From Shigella phage ChubbyThor, in the sequence record OL615013: a stretch of DNA of 64,000 bases. One strand, given 5' to 3'. Made by a program: the position numbers and the translations under genes. Numbering within the stretch: the first letter of the stretch is position 1; every line of letters starts with the position of its first letter. Below are positions 9,342 through 54,309 of the stretch, piece by piece. Under the pieces are notes generated by a model. That model saw only the letters and a list, made by a program, of their open reading frames with translations, searched no databases and had not been told where the DNA came from.

Positions 9342-9914
9342 ATGCACATCAACACTGCTATCACGAAACACATCATTCCTTTGTTAGAGAAATATGAAGG
9401 GAAGAAATCAAAGGATATTTCGTTTGAAGATATATCCGCCGAAGTGAAGCGCTTGACACGTAAAGAAGTCAATTTCCGCCGTGTCCCCCCATCTGCAGTA
9501 GATCGGGCAAAGTCAGATTTGAACACGGCTTCCACTTTCTCCTTTAATATCGATGCCACGGCGACATTGGTATCCGAATTAACGCAGTCGTCACAAGCCC
9601 GTCGCGATCGCTTCCGCCATTTATGTGTGGCCAACGACTATCCTAGCACCCGTGTCGGCATCAAGCTTGAAGCAATCCGCTCCGAGGTGTGCTTCACAGT
9701 GAACTACATCCTGGAGCCTGAAACCAGCAACATTTATTTCGCAGCCATCATCGGCTTCTATGGTACATCCATTAATGGTTGGGCTGAGCGCGTTGAATTA
9801 AAAGAGACTCTGAACAAACACAGCATCCCGTCCACCCATTATATGTCGCTGGCCGCCGCTCGCGAATATGTGTATCTGCTCGAGCGTGATGTGAAGTTAA
9901 AAGTGGTAAAATAA
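9342..9914 (+). CDS. hypothetical protein
   Basis: 190-aa ORF starting with ATG, first plus-strand gene after divergent intergenic region 9008-9341. Confidence 0.5.
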   Translation: MHINTAITKHIIPLLEKYEGKKSKDISFEDISAEVKRLTRKEVNFRRVPPSAVDRAKSDLNTASTFSFNIDATATLVSELTQSSQARRDRFRHLCVANDYPSTRVGIKLEAIRSEVCFTVNYILEPETSNIYFAAIIGFYGTSINGWAERVELKETLNKHSIPSTHYMSLAAAREYVYLLERDVKLKVVK

Positions 9915-9971
9915 CGCTTTATTCAATAAAGAATTGCAGTAAAGTTAGTTGCATGGAAGGGAGGGAACACT

Positions 9972-10118
9972 ATGTTTTACATGATGTTACTCCTCATCCT
10001 CCTGATCGGGATTACCTTTACTCTCCTGGGTCTACCCGATCAGTCCGGTAAACAGTCGCCCACTTCGGCGCATCCGGTTTTGAGTGAAGGTTCGTCCGCA
10101 CTGCTGTGGGCAGTGTAG
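9972..10118 (+). CDS. small hydrophobic peptide (48 aa)
   Basis: ATG at 9972 preceded by GGAGGGAA SD at correct spacing; N-terminal hydrophobic helix MFYMMLLLILLIGITFTLLGL; below ORF-track length cut-off. Confidence 0.3.
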   Translation: MFYMMLLLILLIGITFTLLGLPDQSGKQSPTSAHPVLSEGSSALLWAV

Positions 10119-10119
10119 C

Positions 10120-12170
10120 TCAAAGAGGAGAGGACTTTTCAAATTAGCTGGTCTGCGGTAAAGTATTAAACACGAGGGAAACAGCGCATTGAGTTAGGCA
10201 TCTAAAGCCGACCTCACTAATCCCAGTCTCAGGGGCATGCGTGAATAGAGGCGTAATATCCACCTCGCTGGTGTCAGTGGACGCACTTGACCGTCGGAGA
10301 ACGAAACTCCCTGTTGTAGCGTGATTAGCTCAGAATCAGAGAGCACCCCGTTGGCAAGTCGACACCAACATATAAGGGGAGGTCGGGGGCGCTAATCTCC
10401 ATCACGCCGACAACATTATGAGTCTTCATAGAGGGTTCATAATGTTGCGTCAAAGGGCAACACAAAGGTTCCTGTTGGTTGAATTAACTTGATTCATAGT
10501 TCCTGCTGATCTTCCCGGATTCGAAGGAGCACCAACAGGCGAGGCCGGATGCGTAAGTTCCGGCAAATCGATGGCGAGGTGGTGCATTGGTGACACGGGG
10601 TAGCGCCCAGAAGTGTGGTTCGATTCCACACCCTCGCCAACAAATTAAAGGTTTTGTCAATAACGGGTTGCAGAGTATAGTTAACCCACTGAACGAAAAG
10701 CTGTTTGGGCACTAGACAAACACTTCGATGTGAACCCAGGACATGGCGTCTTGTGCTCAAACAGGTTTTCGTTCTCGTTGCTTGCGGCTTTGCGGGTTTT
10801 AAGAAACAGACCACAAAGATAAATGCAAATGATAACGCTTATCTGGCAGTAGCTTAACAGCTAAAACACCAGTGAGGTCTTCCGACTCCTCATAACAAAA
10901 TTCGGCGCACTAAAAATAGGCGGGAGGGTGTGATTAATAAGCTCCCGCCGACATCTGAGAGGGCACTTGATCGAGGTCGGTATCCGCTATACGGGATGCT
11001 GTAAAATGAATCCACGGAGTGTCCTCCCAGATGTGTCTCACAGCGCATCAGTTTGCAGTTATGCAAGCTTCAATAAGTTAAAACGCGCCTCAGGCGTTAT
11101 GGGATAAAGCCTTAAACAGTGGAATCCCCAGGGCTGGCAATCCCTGTTAAAGAAGTAGCCGTGTGGGGGTCAGCCCCCACAACGCAAAGTAGAGTCCTCT
11201 GGACGTTGAACTTTAACCCAAGGGTTGATTCACATGGTGAACGTTCCCGGCGGCGATAGTACAAGATGAGGGGTCATTGAAGTTCAGAGAACTCTACTTT
11301 GCGGCAGGTACTGCAAAACAGTGATCATCCTGACAAGCGTGATCACTCTTCGACAAAGCATCGCATCGTGGCTATCAACCACATCCTCGCTCTAGTGATG
11401 AGTGGTGTTATGTTCTGTCGGCCAGCCTCGTTTGGTCTGAACGTTAGAGGACAAGTGCTGAAGTGTGACGAAGACACTGAAGTGCGGGTTGTTTGGTGAA
11501 TCCTGCTAAGCGCAAGGGTTGAGTGGCAAAGAAACACCTGAGGGTAAGTCAACGCCATTATTCGCCATGATAATGGCATCGGGAGGCACCCGACGCTAAA
11601 CCGTTTGGCCTGGCGAAAGCAGGCAAGTATCTGGGGTCGATCACCTTGTCCTCTCCCAGGTGCGGGTTGTAGCATGGCTGCAACTCTGATGGCTCTGGGC
11701 ATCCGAATATCAGTTGTGGATGACTAGTGAAAAGAACGTTCAGAGCCATCAGAGTTGTGACCAACCCGATCTTGCAAGCCCGTATCCCGATCTGGTTAAG
11801 ACTTGCAAGTGGAAAGCCCTGGAAAAATAAACGCCTGTTGTGAGGCTACGGTGCAAGCCAATGACCAGCAGAAGCGCGTTGCCGTGAGGCGCACAAAGAG
11901 GCCTGCATGAACTGATCATGCACAAACGGGATAAAGGGTTGACAGTCCTTGGTTGGTTACACAACAGATTAAGGGGCGATAGTTTAAGGGATAGCTGTCC
12001 GGACAGCGAATCCTCATAGAGAACGGCTGGGAGGCCAAACCCAGCAGGTGAGGTGAAAATCCTCAAACCCCGCCAAACATTGTTGGACTGCCAGCAAGCT
12101 CCGGTCTACGGCAGGCGTGATGGGATCGCGGAATTCAAATACCGCCTTGGGAGCACCTAAATAAACCAGT
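10120..12170 (+). ncRNA. ORF-free, hairpin-dense region: candidate large structured non-coding RNA(s)
   Basis: No ORF with plausible composition or RBS on either strand over about 2 kb; many stable stems (e.g. GGCGGGAG/CTCCCGCC near 10920-10950, GTGGGGG/CCCCCAC near 11163-11183, 12-bp long-range pair GCAAAGTAGAGT/ACTCTACTTTGC); strand and boundaries undetermined. Confidence 0.3.
11680..11756. repeat. 17-bp perfect inverted repeat with 43-nt loop
   Basis: caactctgatggctctg (11680-11696) is the exact reverse complement of cagagccatcagagttg (11740-11756). Confidence 0.85.
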
Positions 12171-12193
12171 TGTTCAATAAACAATTGGTGAGT

Positions 12194-12394
12194 ATGATGA
12201 AAACGTTCGGTGATTTTATTGCTGAGTGGGATGGCCTCGCCACCGACAACAAAGAGATTGTCGAGTTTGTTGAAAAGCGAGGTGACAAGTGGGTTGTCCT
12301 TGACCACACCAAGACGAAGGTTCTTGGTACACATGACACCAAAGCTGACGCTGATGCCCAATTAAGGGCGATTGAAGCGAACAAGCACGGATAA
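12194..12394 (+). CDS. small hypothetical protein (66 aa)
   Basis: ORF track 12170..12394 begins at TTG; internal ATG at 12194 with GGTGAG SD is more plausible; stop lies 1-2 nt before tRNA-Asn. Confidence 0.35.
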   Translation: MMKTFGDFIAEWDGLATDNKEIVEFVEKRGDKWVVLDHTKTKVLGTHDTKADADAQLRAIEANKHG

Positions 12395-12952: not shown

Positions 12953-13036
12953 CGCGGGAGCCATAGGGGTTGGACAGTAGCCGACTGATCATCGGCGACG
13001 ATCACTGGACAGGTTCGAATCCTGATCTCCCGCTCC
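12953..13036 (+). tRNA. tRNA-like element, possibly tRNA-Ile (anticodon GAT) with irregular D/T arms
   Basis: Perfect 7-bp acceptor GCGGGAG/CTCCCGC + CCA; stem-loop GCCGA-CTGATCA-TCGGC fits an anticodon arm; TTCGAAT T-loop present but T-stem has a mismatch/extra nt; could not fold a canonical D-arm by hand. Confidence 0.4.
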
Positions 13037-13129: not shown

Positions 13130-13540
13130 AAATTTGCGATCATCGCGGAAATCCCAGACGCGAGTGGAGGCCAGGGTGAAGACTGGCACATGGGCACTGA
13201 CGGCAAAGGTGTTCTACCTCCTGGAATTGGGTGGCCTGAATGGTAGGGAAAGCAGCCAAGCGTTGTGGGTTCAACTCCCACTCACCCAGCCCCAGATGGA
13301 ATGGGTCCATCATCGCAAATCATATTTTGGGCGTGACTTCCTGAAGAGTTAGAAGGTGTGCATGCCGACTCTCTCGTAATCGGGTGTTTAGGAAGTTAAG
13401 AAAATCGCGGCGAGGATAGTGAAATGCAAATAGCTTTCTCTACGCCGACGACTTCAGGTTCGATTCCTGACGCGCTCTCCCATAAGGCAGTACCAGTGCG
13501 AAGTGTGTAGTCTTTTCAACCCATCCCCATCGATGTGGTA

Positions 13541-52924: not shown

Positions 52925-54309
52925 TCGAAAACAGAGAGACCCAAGACGGTATTGTAACACCGTCAACAACATTTGACCTGAAGTATATGGCGATCCTCCC
53001 TCATACACCCCAGGGCGGAACACCAACGCCATACGACCTGACGGCGTTGTTTGAGGAGTTCAACGTCTTCCAGGATCTGGGTCTTGAAGGGAAGTCATCT
53101 CCATCGCTTACAGCCAATGTCTTGATAAAAGAGGGGTGGGACATTCTGGACACAATGCCTATCTTGGGTGGTGAAGAAGTTGTGGTGTCATTCAAGAGTC
53201 CGGCGGCCTCGGATTACACCACTCTCTCCCTGCGCGTGGCGCGGGTAGGGCGCGTGGCTGATGAGTCCAACAGCTCGTCCAAGAAAGCATTCTGGTTGCA
53301 CATGGTGACTACCGATGCCTACAAGGACAGCATGATCCGCTGCTCCCTCGGTCTTGACGGTTCGTACTCTGACATGGCAAAGGTAATCTTCAACCAGCTG
53401 GAGTCGCGCACCAAGTTCGAAGACATCGACCCGTCATATGGCATTCAAGAGCGATTCGCCACCCCGCTCTGGCCTGTGCTGCGATCTATTGATTATATGG
53501 CGAGCCGTTCTTATGACGAATTGTTCATGCCATTCGTCTTCTATGAAGACTTCAATGGCTATCACTTCAAGAGCCTGACGACGTTGTTCAACCAGGGCAG
53601 CCAGTCATTGACGGCAGAAGAGAAGCAGGAACTGGCTCAGCAGAACAAGTTATTCCGTGATCCTCAGGACGCGCCGCTCATGCAGGATAACAACTTCAAC
53701 TCTGAGCGTTTCATGCGCACTATCATTAAGGCAGAGAAGAAGCTGGCGCGTGACCAGTTCATGGCAAACTACCGTGATGTCCTGGCGGTGAATGAGCGTG
53801 TATACGACTTTGAGACCAAGACAGTCACCCCTACACAGCGCATCTACACTGAGTGGTTTGCAGAGACGGCTCACCTTGACCCATTCCCGATGTTCTCAGA
53901 TGAATTCGATCGTCAGAACGTCCGTTATATTGAAGCCCAACCGGATGGAGCGGAGCAGATTGATTATGCTCGTCGTGTTATCAACTTCAGTCTTGCCAGT
54001 ACTGTGATGCGCGTGTTGCTCGTTGGTGATAACCGCCTGAACGTCGGCCAGGTGTTCTACATCGAAGACCAGTCCAACCGTCCTAAGAAGAACGAAAACC
54101 TGGCAGAGTTAAGTAAGCTATCGACAGGCCACTATATCGTGACCAAAGTACGTCACAAGATTTCCCGCCTGACCAAAGATTATCAGTGCATCGCTGAGAT
54201 TGCCAAGGACAGTTTGCTGGAGCAGGTGCTTCCACCTCAGACCAATCAGACAACTGCTTCCACCACTACTCCTCAGGCGATTGAGAAAGGCCAAGCACAG
54301 AAGGTTTAA
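52921..54309 (+). CDS. baseplate hub-like structural protein
   Basis: 462-aa ORF in structural operon. Confidence 0.35.
   Translation: MIENRETQDGIVTPSTTFDLKYMAILPHTPQGGTPTPYDLTALFEEFNVFQDLGLEGKSSPSLTANVLIKEGWDILDTMPILGGEEVVVSFKSPAASDYTTLSLRVARVGRVADESNSSSKKAFWLHMVTTDAYKDSMIRCSLGLDGSYSDMAKVIFNQLESRTKFEDIDPSYGIQERFATPLWPVLRSIDYMASRSYDELFMPFVFYEDFNGYHFKSLTTLFNQGSQSLTAEEKQELAQQNKLFRDPQDAPLMQDNNFNSERFMRTIIKAEKKLARDQFMANYRDVLAVNERVYDFETKTVTPTQRIYTEWFAETAHLDPFPMFSDEFDRQNVRYIEAQPDGAEQIDYARRVINFSLASTVMRVLLVGDNRLNVGQVFYIEDQSNRPKKNENLAELSKLSTGHYIVTKVRHKISRLTKDYQCIAEIAKDSLLEQVLPPQTNQTTASTTTPQAIEKGQAQKV

What the first reader, a model, noticed from the sequence alone, without database searches (positions are those of the whole stretch)
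10120..12170. About 2 kb ORF-free, hairpin-dense block upstream of the tRNA cluster: candidate large structured ncRNA
In an otherwise tightly packed phage genome, about 2 kb lacks any ORF with credible start/RBS or protein-like composition; the six-frame ORFs there are short and Arg/Ser/Pro/Leu-rich. The sequence is full of strong local and long-range inverted repeats, including a 17-bp perfect stem. It sits next to tRNA genes, the context in which large phage-borne ncRNAs (GOLLD/ROOL-type) and T4 stable RNAs are found. It could also be an origin region or decayed genes.
Basis: seen in the sequence. Interest (0 to 1): 0.7.

Follow-up and report, generated by a model that had tools for sequence, protein, structure and literature searches.

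The report
Phage RNA island with tmRNA hijacker
The 2-kb gene-free block is a string of small structured RNA genes, not one big RNA, and one of them looks built to dock on the host's ribosome-rescue RNA (tmRNA), cover its tag template and offer its own, which has not been described before.

Summary
Window 10120-12170 has no credible protein gene, folds more stably than shuffled sequence (mean z -2.0 against -0.46 outside, p=4e-4), and contains the 17-bp perfect stem.

It is non-coding structured RNA beside tRNA genes, but not one large GOLLD/ROOL-like RNA. It is a mosaic of modules of roughly 70-300 nt that are gained and lost independently among Ackermannviridae.

Two modules show compensatory base changes:
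- **Block G (11756-11961):** a ~205-nt multi-helix RNA found in about 270 Ackermannviridae genomes.
- **Tag module (10764-10950):** it carries a tmRNA-style template of ten codons with no start codon (ANDNAYLAVA*). The stop codon sits in a hairpin loop, the frame-setting U(-5)A(-4) is kept, and a pseudoknot and a hairpin follow. It has no tRNA-like domain. Its 5' ~40 nt are a collinear antisense copy of host tmRNA nt 67-106, which include the resume codon.

The tag module occurs in 697 phage records with Enterobacterales hosts and in prophages of 137 of 5,426 E. coli genomes. It is unannotated, absent from Rfam, and I found no paper on it.

Best reading: it docks on host tmRNA, masks the host template, and presents its own or simply blocks it. 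That mechanism is inferred.

The parts
10319..10408 (+). tRNA-like element A. It has an acceptor stem and a D arm, an anticodon arm swollen by a 20-nt insertion, and a degenerate T arm.
   Evidence: Rfam tRNA scores 23 bits, below the gathering score of 29. ARAGORN is silent. The acceptor and D stems are conserved in 5 relatives. 0507-KN2-1 carries a 42-nt insertion in the D loop.
10411..10447 (+). Conserved hairpin with an 11-bp perfect core, extended to 17 bp in the consensus fold.
   Evidence: Inverted repeat I8. It is invariant in 5 relatives, so there is no covariation information.
10573..10641 (+). tRNA-like element B. It has a 7-bp acceptor stem GGCGAGG/CCUCGCC and a canonical T arm GUGUGGUUCGAUUCCACAC, but only 33 nt in between and no normal anticodon arm. 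There is no G3:U70 pair and no encoded CCA.
   Evidence: Read from the sequence. Rfam tRNA-Sec scores 19 bits, far below its gathering score. ARAGORN is silent. The element is precisely absent from EspM4VN.
10654..10681 (+). Sigma-70-like promoter TTGTCA-16-TATAGT upstream of the tag module.
   Evidence: 10 of 12 consensus positions match. The motif TCAATA-N9-11-AGTAT occurs here and at 12174-12195 against 0.03 expected. The same motif precedes the module in Serratia phage 3M.
10691..10774 (+). Long hairpin 1, with 27-nt arms that are 89% complementary. Its 3' arm contains the start of the antisense arm (GGUUUUCGUUC), which pairs in cis with GAACGAAAAGC. It may be an RNase III-type processing or masking hairpin.
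   Evidence: Inverted repeat I1. z = -4.5 for 10600-10799. The stem is kept in Serratia phage 3M through different sequence: GGGGUUAAG/CUUAACCCC instead of GGGCACUAGAC/GUCUUGUGCUC.
10764..10801 (+). Antisense arm of the tag module (GGUUUUCGUUCUCGUUGCUUGCGGCUUUGCGGGUUUUA). It is complementary to host tmRNA nt ~67-106: the 3' strand of pseudoknot 1, the A-rich linker, U85/A86, the resume codon and tag codons 2-6.
   Evidence: Local alignments of the arm from every lineage land on the same stretch of the reverse complement of E. coli ssrA. They beat all 714 null chunks in 5 of 6 lineages; for this window 10 of 714 chunks reach the score. Duplex energy with host tmRNA is -33.9 kcal/mol, against -21.5 with the module's own template.
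10813..10857 (+). Upstream box ACAAAGAUAAAU followed by the tag reading frame GCA AAU GAU AAC GCU UAU CUG GCA GUA GCU UAA (ANDNAYLAVA*; frame 10825-10854, stop 10855-10857).
   Evidence: There are 17 nucleotide versions encoding 11 peptides. All have 10 codons and then UAA, UAG or UGA. Variable sites by codon position are 4, 5 and 9 of 10. The overlapping AUG frame is not conserved. U(-5)A(-4) is invariant. A weak Rfam tmRNA_permuted alignment covers the box and the tag.
10843..10872 (+). Helix-5-like hairpin holding the end of the tag. The outer stem is CUGG/CCAG and the inner stem UAGCU/AGCUA, with the stop codon in the loop.
   Evidence: Compensatory variants are CUGA/UCAG (Ag3 type) and AAAG/CUUU (Erwinia phage Bue1).
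10873..10905 (+). H-type pseudoknot. Stem 1 is UGAGG/CCUCA. Stem 2 pairs CCGA in the loop of stem 1 with UCGG downstream.
   Evidence: Stem 1 variants are CAAGG/CCUUG and UAGGG/CCCUA. Stem 2 variants are CCAA/UUGG and CCAG/CUGG. Both stems are 100% paired in 28 sequences, and 0 of 500 shuffles reach the observed covariation.
10919..10949 (+). 3' hairpin GGCGGGAG / loop GGUGUGAUUAAUAAG / CUCCCGCC.
   Evidence: Five unrelated stem sequences occur across lineages, while the loop core UGAUUAAUAA stays constant in nearly all of them; Erwinia phage Ep030 diverges.
10951..11034 (+). Long hairpin 2, with 17-nt arms ACAUCUGAGAGGGCACU/AGUGUCCUCCCAGAUGU and a variable cap.
   Evidence: Inverted repeat I5. 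This is the strongest z-score in the region, -6.1. The cap is replaced by other, longer sequence in CBA120 and EspM4VN. Analogous stems follow the module in Felix-like, ZCKP8-like and lambdoid elements.
11183..11303 (+). Long hairpin 3, with 22-nt arms that are 91% complementary and a 77-nt cap.
   Evidence: Inverted repeat I2. z is about -3.4. The segment is missing from CBA120.
11491..11601 (+). Module with partial resemblance to the Rfam sRNA family STnc100. It lies inside the 11492-11660 indel, which is bounded by the direct repeat GTGCGGGTTGT.
   Evidence: STnc100 scores 32.9 bits, below its gathering score of 47 (E 3.8e-5). Direct repeat D3 marks the indel ends. The segment is absent from EspM4VN.
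11681..11757 (+).
   Evidence: Inverted repeat I3. z = -3.85 for 11600-11799.
11756..11961 (+). Block G, a ~205-nt multi-helix structured RNA closed by the 11-bp helix UGUGACCAACC/GGUUGGUUACA. Long invariant single-stranded stretches include GGAAAGCCCUGGAAAAAUAAAC.
   Evidence: RNAalifold on 7 Ackermannviridae from 5 genera predicts 58 pairs, 14 of them with changes on both sides. Block G is present in 271 phage records. There is no Rfam match even at E<10. Its first hairpin recurs with a compensated stem in the tRNA cluster of Klebsiella phage KP13-26.
11965..12075 (+). Further conserved non-coding module of unresolved structure, containing a T-loop-like GGUGAAAAUCC. Ag3 and EspM4VN carry a tRNA-Ser(UGA) inserted at its 5' edge.
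   Evidence: It is 91-98% conserved in Ag3, EspM4VN and Dickeya phage XF4, with breakpoints at 11964/11965 and 12073-12076.

Best explanation
The block is an RNA island: a same-strand array of independently exchangeable small structured RNA genes next to the tRNA genes of an Ackermannviridae phage. It contains degenerate tRNA-like elements, long hairpins that probably serve as processing sites, a conserved ~205-nt structured RNA (block G) of unknown role, and a tmRNA-derived RNA (10764-10950).

The tmRNA-derived RNA has no tRNA-like domain. Its 5' arm is antisense to host tmRNA nt ~67-106. Behind the arm it carries its own resume-codon context, a 10-codon tag frame, a helix-5-like hairpin, a pseudoknot and a 3' hairpin.

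Proposed mechanism:
1. The exposed 5' end (UAGUUUUCGU in most lineages) pairs with host tag codons 3-6.
2. Pairing spreads over the host resume codon, U85/A86 and the 3' strand of pseudoknot 1, which silences the host template.
3. The phage template now hangs from the end of the duplex next to the remaining part of pseudoknot 1. It is read in place of the host template, so stalled ribosomes add a phage-specified tag.

What is shown: absence of coding, modularity, RNA structure with covariation, coding-type constraint on the tag frame, and antisense complementarity to host tmRNA. What is inferred: expression and processing, actual pairing in the cell, and the template swap.
For: Modularity comes from block-wise presence and absence in Ag3, CBA120, 0507-KN2-1, XF4, 3M and EspM4VN.

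Structure: the tag module has 17 counted pairs that are 95% paired, 7 of them with changes on both sides. No shuffle out of 500 reaches this, and slid controls give 31-47% pairing. Its 3' hairpin has five different stems. Block G has 14 of 58 pairs with compensatory changes.

The tag frame is always 10 codons followed by a stop. All three stop codons are used. It starts with GCA or GCU. Third codon positions vary at 9 of 10 sites, against 4 and 5 for positions 1 and 2. Further tags are ANDNAFLMAA, ANDNEFKVAA and ANDAQFLAVA.

U(-5)A(-4) is invariant while -1 to -3 vary. This matches E. coli U85/A86; the paper names A86 as the main determinant of frame choice, with U85 in a minor role (PMC2481249).

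Antisense arm: lambdoid AGTTTTCGTCACGTTAGCGAC-----TTTGCGGACTTTTTA aligns with the reverse complement of ssrA 68-106, TAGTTTTCGTCGTTTGCGACTATTTTTTGCGGCTTTTTA. Scores exceed all 714 null chunks in 5 of 6 lineages. Arm-to-host duplexes are -25 to -38 kcal/mol, against -15 to -21 for arm-to-own-template, in all 10 lineages tested. The arm's 5' core GUUUUCGU is invariant, although each module's own codons 3-6 differ between lineages.

In Felix-like and ZCKP8-like phages a promoter places the transcript start right at this motif, where it is predicted to be unpaired.

All 697 phage records that carry the module infect Enterobacterales.

Published work states that pseudoknot 1 and the tag template can be replaced without loss of activity, and proposes that a helix around the resume codon explains the inactivity of the A86C mutant (PMC2481249).
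Against: - There is no expression, processing or interaction data.
- No tRNA-like domain is attached, so translation of the tag needs an untested docking step.
- In this window the arm is the weakest of the lineages tested (10 of 714 null chunks reach its score). Its first 11 nt are sequestered in the 27-bp hairpin 1.
- The spacer between the arm and the resume codon is about 22 nt in most lineages, against about 11 nt between pseudoknot 1 and the resume codon in E. coli.
- Minimum-energy folds let part of the arm pair with the module's own upstream box.
- Only E. coli ssrA was available as the host sequence. The Serratia and Erwinia phage arms differ in their middle part, and I could not check them against their hosts' tmRNA.
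- The roles of block G and the other modules remain unknown.
Confidence: 0.55

Rival explanations
1. The tag module is only an antisense inhibitor or sponge of host tmRNA. It blocks, or triggers cleavage of, the host template, and its own tag frame is never translated but is a relic of its origin.
For: The antisense complementarity is the strongest direct signal. No tRNA-like domain is present. A precedent exists for a phage tmRNA fragment that inhibits tmRNA: mycobacteriophage DS6A carries little more than the tRNA-like domain (PMC4131195).
Against: The frame behaves like a translated one. Its length is fixed, only stop codons occur at position 11, changes are synonymous-biased, U(-5)A(-4) is conserved, and the stop sits in a hairpin loop. 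A relic would not keep these features across Ackermannviridae, Ounavirinae, lambdoid prophages and siphoviruses.
Confidence: 0.25
2. The tag module works with a separately encoded phage tRNA-like RNA, such as element B at 10573-10641 or the T-arm-bearing hairpin caps seen next to it in lambdoid prophages. Together they would form an unconventional split tmRNA independent of host tmRNA.
For: tRNA-like elements without a normal anticodon arm lie near the module in this window. They also lie directly downstream of it in lambdoid loci L010 and L029, where GGTTCGAATCC caps a long stem. Natural two-piece tmRNAs exist (PMC11915505).
Against: Element B is cleanly absent from EspM4VN, which keeps the module. 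Felix-like and ZCKP8-like loci show no such element in the stretches examined. None of the tRNA-like elements read in full (element B here; the L010/L029 caps) has G3:U70 or an encoded CCA. No complementarity links the module to these elements: no partner for the 3' loop was found in the window, and the only other window match to the arm's complement (54092-54100) is within chance expectation.
Confidence: 0.08
3. The block is one large structured RNA (GOLLD/ROOL-like, or a group I/II intron) transcribed and folded as a unit.
For: There is dense predicted structure, and some long-range inverted repeats occur, for example 11436-11455 with 11645-11654 and 11735-11744. The location next to tRNAs fits.
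Against: No Rfam large-RNA or intron family hits at any threshold tried. Segments are independently present or absent in relatives. An internal promoter-like site lies at 10654-10681. The tag module alone is shared with unrelated phages.
Confidence: 0.04
4. The block is decayed protein genes or a graveyard of dead tRNA genes with no present function.
For: Degenerate tRNA-like elements are present. One ORF hits a PHROG built from phage annotations. HNH endonuclease genes land in the region in relatives.
Against: The PHROG-matching ORF is frameshifted in close relatives, and no other ORF has a family hit. Helices in the tag module and block G are kept by compensatory changes across genera. That pattern indicates selection on RNA structure, not decay. 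For the tRNA-like elements themselves, decay remains plausible.
Confidence: 0.06
5. The block is a replication origin or a packaging region.
For: It is non-coding and hairpin-rich. Cumulative GC skew turns near 9600-10000.
Against: The skew turn coincides with the switch from minus-strand to plus-strand genes. GC content is ordinary at 0.47-0.53. There are no iterons or arrays, only two-copy 10-17-nt direct repeats. The conserved features are strand-specific RNA helices with G-U pairs.
Confidence: 0.02

Closest known systems
tmRNA (SsrA), including two-piece forms from permuted genes (Rfam RF00023, RF04321)
   Same: It has a tag reading frame of 10 codons that begins with an Ala codon and has no start codon. 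The AND... motif and an Ala C-terminus are shared. The U-A frame-setting dinucleotide sits at -5/-4. The stop codon lies in the loop of a helix-5-like hairpin, and a pseudoknot follows directly. The upstream box and tag align to the RF04321 consensus (UAAaUGCaAACGAuAAc).
   Different: There is no tRNA-like domain: no acceptor stem with G3:U70, no CCA and no attached T arm. No pseudoknot 1 was found. The size is ~190 nt against ~360. It scores 24 bits against a gathering score of 47, and ARAGORN does not call it. Its 5' part is antisense to tmRNA, which no tmRNA has.
tmRNA fragment of mycobacteriophage DS6A that is little more than the tRNA-like domain (PMC4131195, PMC11915505)
   Same: Both are phage-borne partial tmRNA derivatives thought to interfere with host trans-translation.
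   Different: They are mirror images. DS6A keeps the tRNA-like half and lacks the template. This RNA keeps the template half and lacks the tRNA-like half, and it adds an antisense arm.
Prophage-encoded anti-sRNAs of lambdoid phages (AgvB, AsxR; recalled from my own knowledge of Tree et al. 2014, not checked here)
   Same: Both are phage RNAs that act by base pairing with a host non-coding RNA.
   Different: Those RNAs are simple sponges for Hfq-dependent sRNAs. This one targets tmRNA and also carries a translatable-looking template and conserved tertiary-type structure.
Stable small RNAs in the phage T4 tRNA region (species 1 and 2; recalled from my own knowledge)
   Same: Both are small structured RNAs of unknown role, co-transcribed and processed with phage tRNAs.
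   Different: There is no sequence or structural relationship. The present island is much larger and modular.
GOLLD and ROOL large non-coding RNAs
   Same: Both are found near tRNA genes in phage or prophage DNA, are ORF-free and are highly structured.
   Different: No covariance-model match was found. Here there is no single conserved unit of several hundred nucleotides, but several independent ones.

Membership tests
tmRNA | tRNA-like domain: 5' and 3' ends form an acceptor stem with G3:U70, a T arm and a 3' CCA. | tested here: not met
   ARAGORN finds no tmRNA in the window, the Ackermannviridae loci, or the lambdoid and ZCKP8-like loci scanned. In Felix-like and ZCKP8-like phages the transcript start lies directly at the antisense arm. 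The nearby tRNA-like elements have C3:G70 or all Watson-Crick stems.
tmRNA | Internal tag reading frame without a start codon, beginning with an Ala resume codon and ending in a stop codon. | tested here: met
   There are 17 nucleotide versions and 11 peptides. All have 10 codons plus a stop, start with GCA or GCU, and vary mostly at third positions. Three more divergent tags were found.
tmRNA | Frame-setting upstream sequence (U85/A86 in E. coli, at -5/-4). | tested here: met
   U(-5)A(-4) is invariant in all lineages, while -1 to -3 vary. The requirement is taken from PMC2481249.
tmRNA | Helix 5 holding the stop codon, and pseudoknots flanking the template. | tested here: inconclusive
   The helix-5-like hairpin and the downstream pseudoknot are supported by covariation. 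No pseudoknot 1 equivalent was found upstream, where the antisense arm sits instead.
tmRNA | Score at or above the Rfam gathering threshold. | tested here: not met
   tmRNA_permuted scores 24.0 bits against 47, and alpha_tmRNA 16 bits against 50. Nothing reaches threshold in the lambdoid or ZCKP8-like loci.
tmRNA | Charging with alanine and binding by SmpB. | not testable with these tools
   This needs biochemistry.
Trans-acting antisense RNA against host tmRNA | Extended complementarity to the target that exceeds chance and is conserved across lineages. | tested here: met
   The arm is collinear with ssrA 67-106 in all lineages. No null chunk out of 714 reaches the score in 5 of 6 lineages. 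Duplex energies are -25 to -38 kcal/mol and always stronger than with the module's own template.
Trans-acting antisense RNA against host tmRNA | Expression, and physical pairing with the target in infected cells. | not testable with these tools
   No transcriptome or interactome data are available. I did not search for transcriptome data on Felixounavirus or lambdoid prophages; the one search on Ackermannviridae RNA-seq/sRNA and the term look-up in a 2024 Ackermannviridae review turned up nothing relevant.
GOLLD / ROOL / other large structured RNAs; group I and II introns | Match to the family covariance model, and one contiguous conserved unit. | tested here: not met
   There are no hits at gathering score or at E<=1-10. 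Segments are gained and lost independently.
tRNA (elements A and B) | Cloverleaf with an anticodon arm, reaching the tRNA model threshold. | tested here: not met
   Element A scores 23 bits against 29 and has a 20-nt insertion in the anticodon loop. Element B scores only 19 bits to tRNA-Sec. ARAGORN is silent on both.
STnc100 sRNA (RF02076) | Gathering score across the full model. | tested here: not met
   32.9 bits against 47, covering model positions 30-148 of 206.
RNase III processing hairpins | Near-perfect stems of about 20 bp or more between RNA modules, and cleavage by RNase III. | tested here: inconclusive
   Stems of 27, 22, 17 and 17 bp lie between modules. Cleavage cannot be tested here.
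Replication origin | Iterons or DnaA boxes and an AT-rich unwinding element. | tested here: not met
   Only short two-copy direct repeats occur, and GC content is 0.47-0.53. No DnaA-box scan was run.

The most novel reading that the evidence does not exclude
Phages of enterobacteria carry a small RNA that turns host tmRNA into a chimeric two-piece tmRNA. A 5' antisense arm docks on and masks the host tag template, and the phage RNA's own template is then read. Ribosome rescue during infection would therefore append a phage-chosen peptide (for example AANDNAYLAVA) instead of the host degradation tag. That would be trans-translation reprogrammed by an RNA supplied in trans, a mechanism not known for any tmRNA. 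The same island would also hold a second undescribed structured RNA family (block G) common to Ackermannviridae.
Probability: 0.3. Interest if true: 0.95.

Novelty: categorically new. Interest (0 to 1): 0.85.

Why it matters
tmRNA-SmpB is the main ribosome-rescue system of bacteria and a drug target. No natural RNA is known to pair with its template region, and no RNA with the template domain but no tRNA-like domain has been described.

If the docking model is right, phages can rewrite or switch off the tag that decides the fate of proteins from stalled ribosomes. That bears on phage takeover, on defence systems that cut RNA and stall ribosomes, and on engineering of trans-translation.

The element is common. 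It is in 697 of 50,697 phage records and in prophages of 2.5% of complete E. coli genomes, always in RNA-gene contexts, yet it is unannotated or mis-called as small ORFs.

The work also explains a 2-kb 'no genes' gap noted in Ackermannviridae genomes since 2011. It defines a second conserved structured RNA, block G, for study.

Tried and rejected
- **Rfam.** Seven Rfam scans found only the three tRNAs at gathering score: the whole window at gathering score, five sub-regions of it at permissive E-values, and nine related loci at gathering score. Weak hits (tmRNA_permuted, alpha_tmRNA, STnc100, tRNA, tRNA-Sec) were used as leads only. Hits to miRNA, snoRNA and plastid families were dismissed as chance.
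- **ARAGORN.** It finds no tmRNA, standard or permuted, anywhere.
- **Protein coding.** Pfam and PHROG scans of the six longest internal ORFs gave one PHROG hit, which alignment showed to be frameshifted in relatives.
- **Search for a tRNA-like partner.** There is no complement of the conserved 3' loop, and no second ACGAAAAC site of note, in the window. Short matches to ssrA elsewhere in the block are at noise level.
- **The arm pairing with the module's own template.** This is weaker in every lineage, and the arm does not covary with the module's own codons 3-6.
- **Window-specific 10-nt match.** UUGCGGCUUU against ssrA 71-80 is not conserved in other lineages, so I gave it no weight.
- **RNase P-like look of block G.** The GGAAAGCCC stretch has no support from Rfam.
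- **Bacterial origin of the module.** A scan of 185,579 species genomes gave one real hit, Pseudocitrobacter, probably a prophage (not checked); the rest were chance.
- **Similarity of the other modules to E. coli genomes.** None was found.
- **Literature.** Searches for phage tmRNA-like RNAs, for the module's own sequences and for Ackermannviridae transcriptomics found nothing relevant.
- **Full-length duplexfold against ssrA.** This was uninformative because the method allows huge loops. One run timed out.
Full report
**What the window is.** The region is 96% identical to Shigella phage Ag3 and Salmonella phage P46FS4 (Ackermannviridae, Agtrevirus) and about 89% identical to Kuttervirus phages such as CBA120. 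In all of them the gp6 baseplate gene (minus strand) and two small plus-strand ORFs are followed by 1.2-4 kb that is unannotated apart from occasional tRNA, HNH-endonuclease or short hypothetical-ORF calls, and then by a few tRNA genes. [quoted passage not shown]

**Checking the observation.** Between the stop of a conserved 48-aa ORF (10118) and the next conserved ORF (12170/12197) there is no credible gene.
- The longest ORFs (119, 106 and 105 aa) are on the minus strand and hit nothing in Pfam or PHROGs.
- One plus-strand ORF (11299-11496) hits phrog_23307. It is frameshifted in Ag3 and in a near-identical contig, and it differs from CBA120 by two compensating single-base indels. I read it as an over-called ORF.
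- Local folding is more stable than for dinucleotide shuffles. Mean z is -2.0 inside and -0.46 outside (p=4e-4), with peaks to -6.1.
- The 17-bp perfect stem is at 11681-11697/11741-11757, and there are longer imperfect stems of 27 and 22 nt.

**One RNA or many.** No Rfam family reaches its gathering score except the three tRNAs, and permissive scans give no GOLLD, ROOL, intron or riboswitch signal. Pairwise comparison with six Ackermannviridae from five genera shows a mosaic:
- 10573-10641 and 11492-11660 are cleanly missing from EspM4VN. The second is bounded by an 11-nt direct repeat.
- Ag3 and EspM4VN have a tRNA-Ser(UGA) inserted at 11964/11965.
- CBA120 replaces 10953-11013, 11188-11313 and 11491-11742 with other sequence.
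- Dickeya phage XF4 keeps only 10630-10725, a short piece at 11424-11456, and 11753 onward.
- 0507-KN2-1 has an HNH endonuclease gene inserted at about 10764-10776.

A promoter-like site (TTGTCA-16-TATAGT, 10654-10681) lies inside the block. Its extended motif recurs at 12174-12195, against 0.03 occurrences expected. The block is therefore an array of separate modules, not one large RNA.

**The modules.**
- 10319-10408 is a tRNA-like element with a swollen anticodon arm (23 bits, below the tRNA threshold).
- 10573-10641 has a 7-bp acceptor stem and a perfect T arm, but only 33 nt between them.
- Long hairpins lie at 10691-10774, 10951-11034, 11183-11303 and 11681-11757. They sit between modules and have variable caps. 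They look like RNase III-type processing sites, which is an inference.
- 11491-11601 partly resembles the sRNA family STnc100 (32.9 bits against a threshold of 47).
- 11756-11961, which I call block G, is a ~205-nt domain closed by an 11-bp helix. In an alignment of seven phages RNAalifold predicts 58 pairs, 14 of them with changes on both sides. Long invariant single-stranded stretches are also present.

Block G is present in 271 phage records. All are Ackermannviridae except one, Klebsiella phage KP13-26 (Stephanstirmvirinae). That phage carries only the first hairpin of block G, with a compensated stem, in its own tRNA cluster. Nothing in Rfam resembles block G. Its function is unknown.

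**The tag module (10764-10950).** A distant BLAST showed that roughly 10783-10913 alone is shared, at 72-84% identity, with unrelated phages. The sequence reads ACAAAGAUAAAU GCA AAU GAU AAC GCU UAU CUG GCA GUA GCU UAA, which encodes ANDNAYLAVA*. E. coli tmRNA encodes ANDENYALAA. Homologues were collected from IMG/VR and GenBank.

They lie in several settings, always among RNA genes:
- in Ackermannviridae;
- in the tRNA cluster of Felixounavirus, behind its own promoter;
- in ~46-60-kb phages such as ZCKP8, at the head of an operon ending in tRNA-Arg(UCU) and tRNA-Met;
- in lambdoid prophages between the antiterminator Q gene and the holin gene.

The module is in 697 of 50,697 phage records, all with Enterobacterales hosts. 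It is in 137 of 5,426 complete E. coli genomes, where nothing is annotated over it in the records listed. One of 185,579 species-representative bacterial genomes has it.

**Is the tag frame a coding frame?** Among 51 unique copies there are 17 nucleotide versions of the frame encoding 11 peptides.
- Every copy has exactly ten codons.
- Every copy begins with GCA or GCU.
- Every copy ends in UAA, UAG or UGA.
- Variable sites number 4, 5 and 9 of 10 at codon positions 1, 2 and 3.
- The overlapping AUG-initiated frame is lost in CBA120-type copies and interrupted in Ag3.
- More divergent copies encode ANDNAFLMAA (Serratia phage 3M), ANDNEFKVAA (Erwinia phage Bue1) and ANDAQFLAVA (Erwinia phage Ep030).
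- U(-5)A(-4) before the first codon never varies, while -1 to -3 do. In E. coli these positions are U85 and A86; the paper names A86 as the main determinant of the reading frame, with U85 in a minor role (PMC2481249).

**Is it structured?** The end of the frame and the stop codon lie in a hairpin like tmRNA helix 5. An H-type pseudoknot follows, then a hairpin whose loop core UGAUUAAUAA is constant in nearly all lineages.
- On a 28-sequence alignment, 17 pairs are 95% paired and 7 have changes on both sides. No shuffle out of 500 reaches this, and slid controls fall to 31-47%.
- Stem 2 of the pseudoknot alternates CCGA/UCGG, CCAA/UUGG and CCAG/CUGG.
- The 3' hairpin uses five unrelated stems.
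- Divergent copies add AAAG/CUUU and UAGGG/CCCUA.

**What is missing.** There is no tRNA-like domain. ARAGORN and the Rfam tmRNA models do not call the element anywhere. In Felix-like and ZCKP8-like phages a promoter puts the transcript start at the very beginning of the module. By its defining features the module is therefore not a tmRNA.

**What is there instead.** The first ~40 nt are a collinear antisense copy of host tmRNA.
- The reverse complement of E. coli ssrA nt 68-106 is TAGTTTTCGTCGTTTGCGACTATTTTTTGCGGCTTTTTA.
- A lambdoid copy reads AGTTTTCGTCACGTTAGCGAC-----TTTGCGGACTTTTTA.

All lineages align to this same stretch. It comprises the 3' strand of pseudoknot 1, the A-rich linker, U85/A86, the resume codon and tag codons 2-6.

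The alignment scores exceed every one of 714 null chunks of the same size in five of six lineages. The window's own arm is the weakest, with 10 of 714 chunks reaching its score. Predicted arm-to-tmRNA duplexes are -25 to -38 kcal/mol and are always stronger than arm-to-own-template duplexes, which are -15 to -21.

The 5' core GUUUUCGU is invariant, and with its flanking bases it gives 10 contiguous pairs with ACGAAAACUA (host codons Asp-Glu-Asn-Tyr), all Watson-Crick in most lineages. Each module's own codons 3-6 differ freely between lineages. So the arm is held constant by something other than its own template. Host tmRNA is the obvious candidate.

**Proposed mechanism (inferred).**
1. The 5' end acts as a toehold on host tag codons 3-6. 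In Felix-like and ZCKP8-like RNAs it is predicted to be unpaired.
2. Pairing then spreads over the resume codon, U85/A86 and the 3' strand of pseudoknot 1. A helix around the resume codon has been proposed to explain why the tmRNA A86C mutant is inactive (PMC2481249).
3. The phage RNA leaves the duplex at the end next to the remaining part of pseudoknot 1. It presents its own U-A context and resume codon 12 nt (Felix-like) to about 22 nt further on.
4. According to the same paper, pseudoknot 1 and the template are replaceable without loss of activity, and the length of the A-rich linker is tolerant. A chimeric host-phage two-piece tmRNA is therefore conceivable.

In Ackermannviridae the toehold is held in the 27-bp hairpin 1, opposite a near-copy of the host target (GAACGAAAAGC). 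That stem is maintained by compensatory change in Serratia phage 3M. Processing or unmasking would be needed first.

The tags keep the N-terminal AND..(Y/F) pattern of the host tag but end in LAVA, LMAA or KVAA. Whether that changes their fate in the cell is unknown.

**Rivals.**
- A pure antisense inhibitor would explain the arm but not the coding-type conservation of the frame.
- A split tmRNA that uses a phage tRNA-like piece is undermined by three points. Such pieces are dispensable in EspM4VN, they were not seen in the Felix-like and ZCKP8-like loci examined, and the ones I read in full lack alanine identity elements.
- The readings as a single large RNA, decayed genes or a replication origin fail on the evidence above.

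**Known or new.** I found no paper that describes a phage tmRNA-like RNA without a tRNA-like domain, an antisense RNA to tmRNA, or these sequences. The 2025 tmRNA database lists 79 phage tmRNAs, and its curation insisted that accepted sequences include all three positions of the CCA tail (PMC11915505). The nearest precedent is the mirror case of mycobacteriophage DS6A, which keeps only the tRNA-like domain (PMC4131195).

**Limits.**
- Everything about expression, processing, pairing and translation is inferred from sequence.
- Only E. coli ssrA stood in for the host.
- The antisense signal is weaker in this window than in other lineages.
- Most other modules of the island remain unexplained.

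Noticed in passing
window 10657-10678 and 12174-12195: A shared extended promoter-like motif, TCAATA-N9-11-AGTAT, occurs twice on the plus strand against 0.03 expected. It also precedes the tag module in Serratia phage 3M. It may be a phage-specific promoter class that drives the RNA island and the downstream small ORF and tRNAs.
   Followed up: partly
window 11768-11812; L141 1201-1249 (Klebsiella phage KP13-26): The first hairpin of block G has an 8-bp stem and a conserved 23-nt loop, CCCGUAUCCCGAUCUGGUUAAGA. It recurs with a compensated stem in the tRNA cluster of an unrelated phage subfamily (Stephanstirmvirinae), between tRNA-Asn and tRNA-Thr.
   Followed up: partly
window 11299-11496 (+): This ORF matches phrog_23307 (E 2e-15). 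It is frameshifted in Ag3 and differs from CBA120 by two compensating 1-nt indels. The PHROG may be built from over-called ORFs in this non-coding region.
   Followed up: yes
L004 2466-3026 (Klebsiella phage 0507-KN2-1), equivalent to window ~10764-10776: An HNH endonuclease gene is inserted exactly between long hairpin 1 and the tag module, with about 12 nt duplicated. CBA120 and pSal-SNUABM-02 also carry HNH genes in this island. This suggests that homing endonucleases drive the shuffling of modules.
   Followed up: no
L003 (Felix-like VpaE1), L128 (ZCKP8), L122, L014: In Felixounavirus and ZCKP8-like phages the next tRNA gene downstream of the tag module is tRNA-Arg(UCU), which reads the rare AGA codon.
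   Followed up: no
L010, L029, L066, L013, L140 (lambdoid prophages): The non-coding stretch of roughly 0.6-0.8 kb between the Q antiterminator gene and the holin gene holds the tag module plus several long-stem units. These units share the closing sequence GAGCAYUG...CAGUGCUC, and some have caps with a canonical T arm (GGUUCGAAUCC). None is in Rfam.
   Followed up: partly
window 12954-13033 and 13228-13290: Weak tRNA-like signals lie between and after the three real tRNAs: tRNA-Sec at 21 bits, and a 13-nt match to the ssrA T arm at 13267-13279. This fits the 'degenerate tRNA' mentioned for CBA120.
   Followed up: no
window 12197-12391 (+): The small conserved ORF after the island matches only positions 121-186 of the 262-position phrog_3684. 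It may be a fragment or a domain of a larger protein family.
   Followed up: no
window 10782-10791: UUGCGGCUUU is a perfect 10-nt complement of E. coli ssrA 71-80, the 3' strand of pseudoknot 1. It partly overlaps the family-wide UUUGCGGG site (10788-10795). This exact 10-mer is seen only in this phage and its closest relatives; L122 retains 8 of the 10 nt.
   Followed up: partly
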